Source: a virus
Virus record (IMG/VR): IMGVR_UViG_3300042731_008280
Direction: 5' to 3' (one strand)
Length of the DNA: 43,548 bases
The notes beneath the pieces were generated by a model. That model made no database searches and was not told the DNA's origin. It worked only from the letters and a program-made list of their open reading frames with translations. The position numbers were made by a program, and so were the translations under genes. Below, one piece after another: positions 37,187 to 38,108 of the stretch; the stretch's first letter is position 1, and each line of letters starts with the position of its first letter.

Positions 37187-37348
37187 CTATGCTGGTAATA
37201 GTGCACGTCGCATCATTGCATCACATCCAACATAGTGAGCACCATTAGGCCCGGAATTACATTTTATTACATGACAAGAATCTTCTACAAATTCCATCGG
37301 CTTGCCACCACAGAACGGACAGTTCTTTAATGGCAATTCATCATTCAT
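37187..37348 (-). CDS. Small zinc-ribbon protein, start refined to MNDELPLKNCPFCGG.
   Basis: CPFCGG...CHVIKC...GC. Overlaps the upstream stop by 8 nt. Confidence 0.35.
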   Translation of the reverse strand: MNDELPLKNCPFCGGKPMEFVEDSCHVIKCNSGPNGAHYVGCDAMMRRALLPA

Positions 37349-38108
37349 TTCCGTTGCTATACCCCATATTAAGTTTATCAAGTAGAAATTGGAATTCTCC
37401 TTCTGCTGTCCATCTCGGAATATTAGATTCGAGGTGCCATTCAAGTCTATCTTGCCCTTGTATCTTATAACACCCTCTGCCATTCTTAAATCGAGGCGGA
37501 TAAGTACTCCAGTTTATTCCCGTTTTCTGAAAGAGTAACTCTTGTTGTTGGCTTTGGTTGAGAGTATGCATCATACCACGAGCAGTTTTTTTACCTACCT
37601 CGCGTGCAACTTCGTGATAGCAAGCGCAGGAAATACTGTTTTTAACACAATCGTTCTGACGCCAAACTAACACATTAGCTGCCTCTACTAGATTCGGAAC
37701 GGTAAATACACGAGCATCAAAAAATGCAGTTCTTGGCCAACCAACTGCCCCTTTAATATTATTGAAATGTCCAGTGACAAGCGAACTAACTACACTGCAA
37801 ATTTTTTGAAGTCTATTCCCAAACCACGGTTCTGTGTTCAATGTTCTATCGTTCCGGACCACAAAAGTAATTTCATCTGATTGTGTATAACCGTACACGC
37901 ATCCATCTATTTCTTTGGCAACCCAAAACATCGTTTCGGCCATTATGTGGCTAAGTGATTCATCAAACGGCTTCTCTAAATTACGCGTCAATGCAGAAAA
38001 CGCTTTGCCATCACAACGAATAATGATAGGCACTCTGCGCATAAGATTAGTTTCGCACACAGATTCATATGCCTTTATTCGATCACCCAAGCTAGTAGTA
38101 TCCGTCAT
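37341..38108 (-). CDS. Thg1-like protein (tRNA-His guanylyltransferase / 3'-5' polymerase family). Start refined to MTDTTSLG.
   Basis: IIRCDGKAF, EKPFDE, YGYTQSDEITFV, FDARVFTVPNLVEAANVLVWRQNDCVKNS and QQELLFQKTGINWSTYPPRFKNG are collinear with the Thg1 conserved blocks. Confidence 0.8.
   Translation of the reverse strand: MTDTTSLGDRIKAYESVCETNLMRRVPIIIRCDGKAFSALTRNLEKPFDESLSHIMAETMFWVAKEIDGCVYGYTQSDEITFVVRNDRTLNTEPWFGNRLQKICSVVSSLVTGHFNNIKGAVGWPRTAFFDARVFTVPNLVEAANVLVWRQNDCVKNSISCACYHEVAREVGKKTARGMMHTLNQSQQQELLFQKTGINWSTYPPRFKNGRGCYKIQGQDRLEWHLESNIPRWTAEGEFQFLLDKLNMGYSNGNE

What the first reader, a model, noticed from the sequence alone, without database searches (positions are those of the whole stretch)
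37341..38108. Thg1-like 3'-5' nucleotidyltransferase next to a tRNA-Ile(UAU)/tRNA-Phe dimer
Collinear Thg1 blocks are unambiguous. Thg1-like proteins in bacteria and archaea repair tRNA 5' ends by templated 3'-5' addition. Virus-borne copies are not commonly described. The gene lies about 0.7 kb downstream of the abutting tRNA-Ile(UAU)/tRNA-Phe(GAA) pair (36474..36624). That pair is encoded with no spacer, so the CCA of tRNA-Ile is immediately followed by +1 of tRNA-Phe.
Basis: partly seen in the sequence, partly recalled or inferred. Interest (0 to 1): 0.65.

Follow-up and report, generated by a model that had tools for sequence, protein, structure and literature searches.

The report
Phage Thg1-like tRNA 5'-end repair enzyme
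A large phage carries an intact bacterial-type Thg1-like reverse (3'-5') RNA polymerase among RNA ligases, a kinase and its own tRNA genes; it is most likely part of a tRNA-repair toolkit, a kind of phage gene that is already widely annotated but has never been tested.

Summary
Window 37341..38108 (minus strand, 255 aa) is a full-length Thg1-family protein. tRNA-Ile(UAU) 36550..36624 abuts tRNA-Phe(GAA) 36474..36549 with no spacer, and both encode CCA. All features lie on the minus strand, so the enzyme gene is 716 nt upstream of the tRNAs, not downstream.

The protein is a bacterial-type Thg1-like protein (TLP). Its best solved relative is Bacillus thuringiensis TLP (E 3e-35, TM 0.80-0.89). 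All catalytic residues are kept (D33, D78, E79, K46, S77, R31, K102, R133).

The claimed rarity does not hold: 162 GenBank phage records, PHROG 4717 and at least 586 IMG/VR contigs carry homologues, and papers from 2010 and 2021 discuss phage Thg1 in RNA repair.

A special link to the tRNA dimer is not supported. Both tRNAs have complete, paired 5' ends. A 77%-identical relative has a 2-nt spacer. Only 11 of 33 phage TLP clusters have any tRNA within 10 kb, and none has a tRNA-His.

The better-supported link is to RNA repair. An Rnl2-type ligase lies 1.3 kb upstream, and an Rnl1-type ligase, a PNK-like kinase and a peptidyl-tRNA hydrolase lie elsewhere in the window. RlaP, HAD and ligase genes neighbour phage TLPs elsewhere.

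Verdict: a new member of a known kind, of modest interest.

The parts
37341..38108 (-). Thg1-like protein (bacterial-type TLP), 255 aa, predicted templated 3'-5' nucleotidyltransferase
   Evidence: Pfam Thg1 E 2.1e-28 plus Thg1C E 1.5e-7; PHROG 4717 E 1.7e-67; PDB 4kgk BtTLP E 3e-35; AF2 pLDDT 92 and Foldseek TM 0.80/0.89 to 4kgm; catalytic residues E15 R31 D33 K46 S77 D78 E79 K102 R133 R150 present
36550..36624 (-). tRNA-Ile(UAU), 75 nt, CCA encoded, A73, C4:G69; reads AUA
   Evidence: ARAGORN; Rfam tRNA 68.9 bits; stems differ from L001 by changes on both strands that keep pairing (read from the alignment); AUA is 40% of Ile codons in window ORFs
36474..36549 (-). tRNA-Phe(GAA), 76 nt, CCA encoded; its G+1 directly follows the CCA of tRNA-Ile
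   Evidence: ARAGORN; Rfam tRNA 72.4 bits; sequence
37187..37348 (-). 53-aa Zn-ribbon ORF (CPFCGG motif), weakly Lar-like; its ATG overlaps the last 8 nt of the TLP gene, so it may be translationally coupled
   Evidence: Pfam Lar_restr_allev E 1.5e-4, below the cut-off; PHROGs Lar-like E 0.004; the homologous ORF in L001 carries PF14354 and also overlaps the TLP gene; sequence
39413..40279 (-). Rnl2-type RNA ligase (PF09414), 288 aa, motif I EK26CHGT; 1.3 kb upstream of the TLP gene
   Evidence: Pfam RNA_ligase E 1.5e-11; PHROG 548 E 7e-22; weak match to T4 Rnl2 2hvq; phage homologues annotated RNA ligase 2
28794..29879 (-). Rnl1-type RNA ligase (PF09511), 361 aa
   Evidence: Pfam RNA_lig_T4_1 E 2.6e-12, full profile; collinear homologue in L001
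21195..21740 (-). P-loop kinase of the AAA_33 / polynucleotide-kinase-like type; candidate supplier of 5'-phosphate ends
   Evidence: Pfam AAA_33 E 1.9e-10 and KTI12 E 2.5e-5; 77% nt identity to the AAA_33 gene that sits in the L001 repair block
12067..12819 (-). Calcineurin-like metallophosphoesterase; possible 3'-end healing phosphoesterase (uncertain member of the toolkit)
   Evidence: Pfam Metallophos E 3e-10; a role in RNA repair is inference only
1246..1866 (-). Peptidyl-tRNA hydrolase (Pth); releases and recycles tRNA from peptidyl-tRNA (uncertain member of the toolkit)
   Evidence: Pfam Pept_tRNA_hydro E 1.2e-43

Best explanation
The ORF encodes a catalytically competent, bacterial-type Thg1-like protein (TLP) carried by a large, probably 'huge', phage. 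By homology to B. thuringiensis TLP, it should activate a 5'-monophosphate RNA end with ATP or GTP. It should then add the missing nucleotides in the 3'-5' direction, using the 3' strand of the acceptor stem as a Watson-Crick template, and so rebuild tRNAs that have lost 5' nucleotides. It most likely works as one tool in a dispersed phage RNA/tRNA maintenance kit: Rnl2-type and Rnl1-type ligases, a PNK-like kinase that can supply the 5'-phosphate, a phosphoesterase, peptidyl-tRNA hydrolase and four phage tRNAs. This kit would keep translation running during infection, probably against host tRNA-damaging defences. The neighbouring tRNA-Ile(UAU)/tRNA-Phe dimer is best explained separately. It supplies decoding capacity for an AUA- and UUY-rich phage, and one RNase P cut at the junction would give both the CCA-3' end of tRNA-Ile and the 5' end of tRNA-Phe. 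Shown here: family membership, intact active site, fold, gene context and its conservation. Inferred: the enzymatic activity, tRNA as substrate, and the counter-defence purpose.
For: Family and active site. The match to BtTLP scores 125 bits against 42-49 bits for eukaryotic Thg1. The residues equivalent to BtTLP E12, R28, D30, K43, S74, D75, E76, K99, R131 and R147 are all present. At the site where eukaryotic Thg1 has HINNLYN, the window has KNSIS, like BtTLP. BtTLP prefers 5'-truncated tRNAs of any identity (abstract of PMC3061083). Context in the window: Rnl2-type ligase 1.3 kb upstream, Rnl1-type ligase, AAA_33 kinase, Pth and Metallophos, and no terminator-like sites between 35300 and 40700. 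Conservation: the relative L001 (77% aa identity) keeps AAA_33, HAD_SAK_2, RNA_ligase, Thg1, Lar, the tRNAs and Rnl1 in the same order. In a sister lineage (52-58% identity), all six contigs sampled keep Thg1, an unknown ~275-aa ORF, RlaP, NT5C and RNase_T in order, and five of the six also have a PF09414 RNA ligase just upstream. Across 33 dereplicated IMG/VR TLP clusters, RlaP lies within 10 kb in 8 and within 3 kb in 6. Pfam of 132 immediate neighbours gives RlaP x3, HAD_SAK_2, HAD_PNKP, cREC_REC, PolyA_pol and AAA_33, against only one AAA_33 among the listed families for 127 ORFs more than 6 kb away (Fisher p about 0.04). The same linkage of Thg1 with PNK and RNA ligase was reported for bacteria in PMC2904730.
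Against: No activity was measured, and I found no report of a characterised phage TLP. In the window, the kit other than the Rnl2-type ligase is spread over 8-36 kb, so it is not an operon. The HAD_SAK_2 phosphatase present in L001 is missing from the window. 20 of 33 phage TLP clusters show none of my RNA-repair markers within 10 kb, although those HMMs were built from few seeds. The Pfam neighbour lists are truncated at 25 families, so the enrichment test is rough. No defence nuclease that removes tRNA 5' nucleotides is known to me. S38 replaces the His that contacts the ribose of the activating NTP in BtTLP (H35), and C161 replaces M158; the effect of these changes is unknown.
Confidence: 0.6

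Rival explanations
1. It is a true tRNA-His guanylyltransferase, as database annotations say. It would add G-1 opposite C73 to a phage-encoded or host tRNA-His whose G-1 is not retained by RNase P.
For: Homologues are annotated this way in almost every phage record and in PHROG 4717. BtTLP can add a templated N-1 to tRNA-His and weakly complements yeast thg1 deletion (section headings and abstract of PMC3061083). Only 43.5 kb of what is probably a much larger genome is visible, so a tRNA-His may lie elsewhere.
Against: The window has no tRNA-His, and neither do L001-L004. None of the 56 tRNAs within 10 kb of 80 viral TLP genes is tRNA-His. The protein belongs to the TLP clade and lacks the eukaryotic HINNLYN segment. 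BtTLP kinetically prefers 5'-truncated tRNAs. TLPs occur in 13 Caulobacter phage records; from my own knowledge, not tested here, that host group is reported to lack G-1 on tRNA-His.
Confidence: 0.15
2. The enzyme is dedicated to the adjacent zero-spacer tRNA-Ile/tRNA-Phe dimer. It would repair 5' ends of tRNA-Phe produced by imprecise cleavage at the CCA|G junction. This is the link the first reader implied.
For: The TLP gene and the dimer are 716 nt apart on the same strand with no terminator-like site between them. The order TLP, Lar, two small ORFs, tRNA-Ile, tRNA-Phe is kept in L001-L004.
Against: Both tRNAs are fully encoded, with Watson-Crick pairs at 1:72, 2:71 and 3:70. A single RNase P cut suffices to mature the junction (established knowledge of RNase P). 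L001 has a 2-nt spacer, so abutment is not selected. The synteny is seen only in near relatives (74-78% nt identity). The L005-7 lineage has no tRNA near its TLP. Of the L088-90 contigs, two have none and L088 has a single tRNA-Leu about 7.8 kb from its TLP. 22 of 33 phage TLP clusters have no tRNA within 10 kb.
Confidence: 0.05
3. It acts on non-tRNA RNA ends. For example, it could activate or cap 5' ends (App- or Gpp-RNA) to protect phage transcripts, or prime ligation, or extend 5' ends of small RNAs or nicked duplex RNAs together with the Rnl2-type ligase.
For: The first chemical step of Thg1/TLP enzymes makes a 5'-adenylylated or guanylylated RNA, and PMC2904730 raised ligation through 5'-App as a possibility. 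The nearest functionally assignable neighbour is a nick-sealing-type ligase rather than a tRNA gene product.
Against: The characterised TLPs covered by the sources read here act on tRNA. From my own knowledge, all characterised bacterial and archaeal TLPs do. Nothing in the sequence points to a different substrate.
Confidence: 0.12

Closest known systems
Bacillus thuringiensis Thg1-like protein, BtTLP (PDB 4KGK/4KGM)
   Same: Best sequence match (E 3e-35, about 35% identity over residues 6-242) and best structural match (TM 0.80/0.89). Same catalytic carboxylates and the same activation and transfer residues. Same KNSIS segment. Similar length.
   Different: The window protein is phage-encoded. 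S38 replaces H35 and C161 replaces M158. The window protein belongs to a metagenomic phage clade whose members are 50-85% identical to it, whereas cellular TLPs reach only 42% identity or less.
Phage 'tRNA-His guanylyltransferase' genes (PHROG 4717; e.g. Bacillus phages BSP38 and Bc431v3, Stenotrophomonas RAS14, Xanthomonas XacN1, Pseudomonas 201phi2-1)
   Same: Same family, same size, carried by large phages, function untested. Some also lie near RNA ligases; RAS14 has an RnlA-type ligase 4 kb away.
   Different: Identity is only 36-41%. The window gene sits next to a tRNA dimer and an Rnl2-type ligase, whereas BSP38 shows only hypothetical neighbours.
Phage T4 tRNA repair (Pnkp + Rnl1; Rnl2) and the RNA-repair systems catalogued by Aravind and co-workers (RlaP, HAD 'Swiss army knife', cREC)
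   Same: Phage-borne healing and sealing enzymes that restore damaged tRNAs. The window has Rnl1-type and Rnl2-type ligases and a PNK-like kinase. Relatives add HAD_SAK_2 and RlaP next to the TLP.
   Different: T4 has no Thg1-like enzyme (my own knowledge). A TLP would rebuild the 5' strand of a helix rather than heal anticodon-loop breaks. The window genes are dispersed rather than arranged in one cassette.
Eukaryotic Thg1 (human 3OTB, yeast 5XOX, Candida 3WBZ)
   Same: Same fold and same two-metal active site.
   Different: Only 20-23% identity. The window protein lacks the HINNLYN segment. Eukaryotic Thg1 adds a non-templated G-1 to tRNA-His specifically, and no such substrate is visible here.
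Mitochondrial tRNA 5'-editing TLPs of Acanthamoeba and Dictyostelium (from my own knowledge)
   Same: TLPs that rebuild the first three acceptor-stem nucleotides of co-encoded tRNAs.
   Different: Those tRNAs are encoded with 5' mismatches. The four window tRNAs have no mismatches in pairs 1-3, only the wobbles G1-U72 in tRNA-Glu and G3-U70 in the odd tRNA.
T4-type dimeric tRNA precursors (from my own knowledge)
   Same: Two phage tRNAs encoded head to tail with essentially no spacer and matured from one transcript.
   Different: Here both tRNAs encode their CCA, so one RNase P cut would finish both ends.

Membership tests
Thg1/TLP superfamily (PF04446 + PF14413) | Full-length profile match above the curated threshold | tested here: met
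   PF04446 99.3 bits (cut-off 29.2), profile positions 2-130 of 130; PF14413 32.1 bits (cut-off 26.3)
Thg1/TLP superfamily (PF04446 + PF14413) | Three conserved carboxylates (hTHG1 D29/D76/E77 = BtTLP D30/D75/E76) | tested here: met
   D33, D78 and E79; invariant in a 44-sequence alignment
Thg1/TLP superfamily (PF04446 + PF14413) | Activation-step residues (Lys and Ser) and nucleotidyl-transfer residues (Arg, Lys, Arg) | tested here: met
   K46 and S77; R31, K102 and R133; also E15 and R150. The third activation residue (Sc N161 / Bt M158) is C161.
Thg1/TLP superfamily (PF04446 + PF14413) | Polymerase-palm-like Thg1 fold | tested here: met
   AF2 model with pLDDT 92.2; Foldseek top 32 hits are all Thg1/TLP structures, TM 0.80/0.89 to 4kgm
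Thg1/TLP superfamily (PF04446 + PF14413) | 3'-5' nucleotide addition activity | not testable with these tools
   Needs a biochemical assay
Bacterial-type TLP (as opposed to eukaryotic Thg1) | Closer to a characterised bacterial TLP than to eukaryotic Thg1, with a TLP-type segment where eukaryotes have HINNLYN | tested here: met
   125 bits to BtTLP against 42-49 bits to human, yeast and Candida Thg1. The window has VKNSISC, BtTLP has SKNSISM and human has HINNLYN.
Bacterial-type TLP (as opposed to eukaryotic Thg1) | Kinetic preference for templated repair of 5'-truncated tRNAs | not testable with these tools
   Known for BtTLP and MaTLP (PMC3061083); inferred here by homology
tRNA-His guanylyltransferase in the functional sense (G-1 addition) | A cognate tRNA-His that needs post-transcriptional G-1 | tested here: inconclusive
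   No tRNA-His in the window, in L001-L004, or within 10 kb of 80 viral TLP genes. The rest of this phage genome is not available.
Phage RNA-repair system (ligase + end-healing enzymes) | RNA ligase present and linked to the gene | tested here: met
   PF09414 ligase 1.3 kb upstream and PF09511 ligase 7.5 kb downstream. The PF09414 linkage recurs in L001, L088-90, L173 and L175.
Phage RNA-repair system (ligase + end-healing enzymes) | 5'-kinase and 3'-phosphoesterase partners | tested here: inconclusive
   An AAA_33 kinase is present but 16 kb away. HAD_SAK_2 is present in L001 but not found in the window. A Metallophos gene at 12067..12819 has unknown specificity.
Dimeric tRNA precursor | Two same-strand tRNA genes with a spacer of zero or a few nucleotides | tested here: met
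   36550..36624 and 36474..36549 with 0 nt between them; 2 nt in L001. Co-transcription and processing were not testable.

The most novel reading that the evidence does not exclude
Phage TLPs, including this one, are counter-defence enzymes. In this reading they rebuild the 5' strand of tRNA acceptor stems, on host or phage tRNAs, after attack by a host anti-phage nuclease class that trims or cleaves tRNA 5' ends and has not yet been described. They would work alongside RlaP (3'-end restoration), PNK-like kinases and Rnl2-type ligases. The small Zn-ribbon ORF that overlaps the TLP stop codon could be a coupled partner or an anti-restriction factor whose action triggers such a nuclease, by analogy with T4 Stp and PrrC.
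Probability: 0.25. Interest if true: 0.65.

Novelty: new member of a known kind. Interest (0 to 1): 0.28.

Why it matters
The biological role of bacterial and phage TLPs is still unknown. Their in vitro 5'-end repair activity has no identified natural damage source. Phage copies embedded among ligases, RlaP and kinases, and next to anti-defence genes (Gad2, Tad8, Lar-like), argue that tRNA 5'-end damage happens during infection. They also offer a tractable genetic system (phage knock-out plus tRNA 5'-end sequencing) for finding that damage. This particular locus adds one more divergent example and a tidy neighbourhood. It does not change what is already proposed in the literature.

Tried and rejected
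(1) Near-identical phage genomes: megablast of 36000..41000 found only a 60-nt tRNA match. No isolate relative was found and no host could be inferred.

(2) Host inference from cellular TLPs: the genome-contig scan gave at most 42% identity, spread over Armatimonadota, Actinomycetes, Clostridia, archaea and others, so it was uninformative.

(3) Looking for the source contig or other zero-spacer dimers: exact-pattern scans of IMG/VR (TLP 5' end) and of JGI metagenomes (junction sequence, then ACCA-N0-3-tRNA-Phe) found nothing.

(4) A weak Rfam YrlA (Y-RNA-like) hit across the tRNA junction (31.8 bits against a gathering score of 69). I rejected it as an artefact of a T-arm followed by a D-arm.

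(5) The idea that the co-encoded tRNAs carry 5' mismatches needing editing was rejected from the cloverleaves.

(6) The idea that TLP-tRNA adjacency is general in phages was rejected.

(7) Promoter and terminator scans gave promoter-like sites at the chance level and no terminators.

(8) NCBIfam gave no hit for the TLP.

(9) PDB sequence searches of the Rnl1-type ligase and the kinase gave nothing.

(10) The extra tRNA-Phe(AAA) of L001 has no intact counterpart in the window.

(11) Literature searches for an experimentally characterised phage TLP found none.
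Full report
OBSERVATION. The window is coded almost entirely on the minus strand, with GC 33-41% per 2-kb block (window mean 36.6%) and negative GC skew in every block but the first. The ORF at 37341..38108 (minus strand) starts at an ATG and encodes 255 aa. It matches Pfam Thg1 over the whole profile (E 2.1e-28, 99 bits) and Thg1C (E 1.5e-7). It also matches PHROG 4717 'tRNA-His guanylyltransferase' (E 1.7e-67). NCBIfam has no model that hits it.

ARAGORN and Rfam agree on four tRNAs:
- tRNA-Ile(UAU) at 36550..36624.
- tRNA-Phe(GAA) at 36474..36549.
- tRNA-Glu(UUC) at 23599..23675.
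- An odd tRNA at about 19351..19425.

The Ile and Phe genes abut exactly (…GGTGCACCA|GGGCTGG…), and both encode CCA. One correction is needed: in the direction of transcription the enzyme gene lies 716 nt upstream of the tRNAs. Three small ORFs lie between them.

WHAT THE PROTEIN IS. A phmmer search against PDB sequences gives Bacillus thuringiensis TLP (4kgk) at E 3e-35 (125 bits). Human, yeast and Candida Thg1 and the archaeal MaTLP score only 42-49 bits.

I mapped the residues named in the BtTLP structure paper (PMC3701042) through that alignment:
- BtTLP E12, R28, D30, K43, S74, D75, E76, K99, R131 and R147 correspond to window E15, R31, D33, K46, S77, D78, E79, K102, R133 and R150. All are present.
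- All of these except K46 are invariant in a 44-sequence alignment of metagenomic homologues.
- Two positions differ: S38 replaces BtTLP H35, and C161 replaces M158.
- Where eukaryotic Thg1 has HINNLYN, the window has KNSIS, like BtTLP.

An AlphaFold2 model built on the alignment has pLDDT 92. Its 32 best PDB matches are all Thg1/TLP structures, and BtTLP is first (TM 0.80/0.89). So this is an intact bacterial-type TLP and not a eukaryote-like tRNA-His-specific Thg1.

SURROUNDINGS IN THE WINDOW. The TLP stop codon is overlapped by the start of a 53-aa Zn-ribbon ORF with a CPFCGG motif. This ORF is weakly Lar-like (E 1.5e-4, below Pfam's cut-off).

The following RNA-related genes are also present:
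- 1.3 kb upstream, an Rnl2-type RNA ligase (PF09414, E 1.5e-11; PHROG 548).
- An Rnl1-type ligase at 28794..29879.
- An AAA_33/PNK-like kinase at 21195..21740.
- A metallophosphoesterase at 12067..12819, an RNase T-like exonuclease at 7830..8393 and a peptidyl-tRNA hydrolase at 1246..1866.

No terminator-like site occurs between 35300 and 40700, and promoter-like sites are at the chance level. The tRNA dimer is packed into the gene array. The stop codon of the preceding ORF lies 6 nt before tRNA-Ile. A Shine-Dalgarno sequence and ATG follow tRNA-Phe within about 30 nt.

AUA makes up 40% of Ile codons and UUU 78% of Phe codons in the window's ORFs. That is an ordinary reason for a phage to carry tRNA-Ile(UAU).

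An 833-aa protein at 2533..5034 has its only phage-database homologues in 462-735 kb 'uncultured phage' genomes. The best ligase homologue is in a 485-kb one. The window therefore probably comes from a very large phage.

RELATIVES. The closest TLPs (99%, 85% and 77% identity) are metagenomic.

The 77% relative lies on a 31.5-kb contig (L001) that is collinear with the window at 69-79% nt identity. L001 carries, in order, AAA_33, HAD_SAK_2, RNA_ligase, Thg1, Lar, tRNA-Ile(UAU), tRNA-Phe(GAA), tRNA-Phe(AAA) and Rnl1. In L001 the two tRNAs are separated by 'TC', so the zero spacer is not conserved. The tRNA-Ile stems differ from the window's by changes on both strands that keep pairing, as read from the alignment. 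The tRNA-Phe is nearly identical.

A second lineage (57% identity; L005-7) has no tRNA or RNA-repair gene near its TLP. The TLP there sits among peptide deformylase, Met-aminopeptidase, Cpn60 and ClpP genes.

A third lineage (52-58% identity) was sampled in six contigs: L088-90 and L173-175. All six keep Thg1, an unknown ~275-aa ORF, RlaP, NT5C and RNase_T in order, followed by a DNA ligase gene. Five of the six also have a PF09414 RNA ligase just upstream of Thg1, and three have Gad2.

HOW COMMON IN PHAGES. tblastn finds homologues in 162 GenBank phage records from Bacillus, Prevotella, Caulobacter, Mycobacterium, Erwinia, Vibrio and other phages. All are below 60% identity to the window protein, and most are already annotated as tRNA-His guanylyltransferase. 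At least 586 IMG/VR contigs encode one, mostly on contigs of 80-340 kb.

I took the 80 best IMG/VR loci with 10-kb flanks and dereplicated them into 33 clusters:
- 11 clusters have a tRNA within 10 kb, and 3 have one within 3 kb.
- None of the 56 tRNAs found across the 80 loci is tRNA-His.
- HMMs built here find RlaP in 8 of 33 clusters (6 within 3 kb), Rnl2-type ligase in 5, AAA_33 in 4 and HAD_SAK in 2.

Pfam scans of the two genes on each side of each TLP (132 ORFs) list RlaP x3, HAD_SAK_2, HAD_PNKP, cREC_REC, PolyA_pol (CCA-adding type), AAA_33 and Metallophos x2. They also list NAD-salvage genes and an anti-Thoeris gene (Tad8). A control set of 127 ORFs more than 6 kb away lists only one AAA_33 among the families shown. 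Fisher's exact test on 8/132 against 1/127 gives p about 0.04. This test is rough because the family lists are truncated at 25.

Cellular genomes carry TLPs at 42% identity or less, in many phyla.

LITERATURE. Anantharaman, Iyer and Aravind (2010, PMC2904730) already noted Thg1 in phage 201phi2-1. They also noted operonic links of bacterial Thg1 to polynucleotide kinase, Macro domains and RNA ligase, and proposed RNA repair against host defences. Iyer et al. (2021, PMC7824862) list Thg1 as a sporadic 5'-end-restoring nucleotidyltransferase of jumbo phages, alongside RlaP and CCA-adding enzyme. Rao et al. (PMC3061083) showed that BtTLP and MaTLP prefer 5'-truncated tRNAs of any identity. I found no paper that tests a phage TLP.

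MECHANISM (inferred). By homology, the enzyme would activate a tRNA 5'-monophosphate with ATP or GTP. It would then add NTPs templated by the 3' acceptor strand until the stem is complete. The AAA_33 kinase could provide the 5'-phosphate, and the ligases and phosphoesterase would handle other lesions. The purpose is probably to keep translation running when host nucleases damage tRNAs.

The adjacent dimer does not need the enzyme. Both tRNAs are fully encoded, with Watson-Crick pairs at positions 1-3. One RNase P cut at the junction would produce both mature ends (established RNase P chemistry).

RIVALS.
- G-1 addition to a tRNA-His located elsewhere in the genome cannot be excluded, but nothing seen here favours it.
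- Dedicated repair of the dimer is contradicted by the complete 5' ends, the 2-nt spacer in L001 and the lack of a general TLP-tRNA linkage.
- A non-tRNA substrate remains possible, but nothing in the sequence points to one.

VERDICT. The gene call and the tRNA anatomy are correct. The rarity claim and the implied link to the tRNA dimer are not supported. This is a divergent new member of an already recognised class, the phage-borne Thg1-like proteins associated with RNA repair. The open and worthwhile question is what damage these enzymes repair in vivo. This locus illustrates that question but does not answer it.

Noticed in passing
window 2533..5034 (-): An 833-aa ORF carries Major Vault Protein shoulder (PF11978, E 3e-22) and Vault_3 repeat (E 9e-11) domains, which is unusual for a phage. 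The only phage-database homologues (41-42% identity, 94-95% coverage) are in 462-735 kb 'uncultured phage' genomes LR756500, LR756501 and LR756503.
   Followed up: partly
window 19351..19425 (-): A tRNA-like gene (Rfam tRNA 52.7 bits) has an 8-nt anticodon loop (ACGGUCAA; ARAGORN calls a 4-base anticodon GGUC). It also has G3:U70 plus A73, which from my own knowledge are alanine identity marks, and it has no encoded CCA, unlike the other three tRNAs. It folds as a cloverleaf (z -2.8). The anticodon arm has no exact match in IMG/VR. It could be a frameshift or mis-decoding tRNA, a decoy, or a pseudogene.
   Followed up: partly
window 23599..23675 (-): tRNA-Glu(UUC) has a G1-U72 wobble at the top of the acceptor stem, A73 and an encoded CCA.
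   Followed up: no
window 9772..10869, 15639..16322, 16268..17248 (-): Three ORFs give weak radical-SAM matches (E 2e-4, 1.6e-3 and 8e-5, all below Pfam cut-offs). They may form a modification pathway.
   Followed up: no
window 25901..26404, 28261..28770, 42505..42978 (-): Three isochorismatase-like paralogues are scattered through the window (E 2e-9, 4.5e-3 and 8e-4). L001 has one too (faint hit).
   Followed up: no
window 43081..43377 (-): A 98-aa ORF matches the Cas12f1/TnpB TNB zinc-ribbon domain (E 6.6e-14). It looks like a TnpB fragment or a small stand-alone derivative at the window edge.
   Followed up: no
window 19842..21158 (-): Three consecutive small ORFs (158, 127 and 128 aa) share repeat-like matches (DUF6745, MORN_2, BiPBP_C). 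They appear to be tandem paralogues, located just downstream of the AAA_33 kinase gene.
   Followed up: no
L001 12414..12489: The relative carries an extra tRNA called Phe with anticodon AAA, an unusual A34 tRNA. The homologous window stretch (about 35935..36010) has lost it or was never tRNA-like.
   Followed up: partly
L088 8768..9589; also L089, L090, L173, L174, L175: An unannotated ORF of about 275 aa always sits between Thg1 and RlaP in six contigs of a sister phage lineage. It has no Pfam hit and is a candidate further component of a TLP-RlaP repair module.
   Followed up: no
L088 7102..7998, L089 6996..7697, L174 5089..5760: A Gad2 (anti-Gabija) family gene lies directly upstream of the TLP in three contigs. 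A Tad8 (anti-Thoeris) gene neighbours a TLP in one IMG/VR locus. TLPs therefore sit in counter-defence neighbourhoods.
   Followed up: no
L021 (cluster of 20 loci), L047, L068: In these IMG/VR loci the AAA_33-like (L021) or RlaP-like (L047, L068) ORF touches or overlaps the TLP ORF (distance 0 in stop-to-stop ORFs). These may be fusions or tightly coupled genes.
   Followed up: no
window 36516..36585 (-): A sub-threshold Rfam YrlA (Y-RNA-like) match spans the tRNA-Ile/tRNA-Phe junction (31.8 bits, gathering score 69). I judged it an artefact of a T-arm followed by a D-arm.
   Followed up: yes
window 33108..34946 (-): A 612-aa ORF has no Pfam or PHROG match but is conserved at the same position and length in L001 and L002. 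It is the largest unknown gene in the TLP-tRNA neighbourhood.
   Followed up: no
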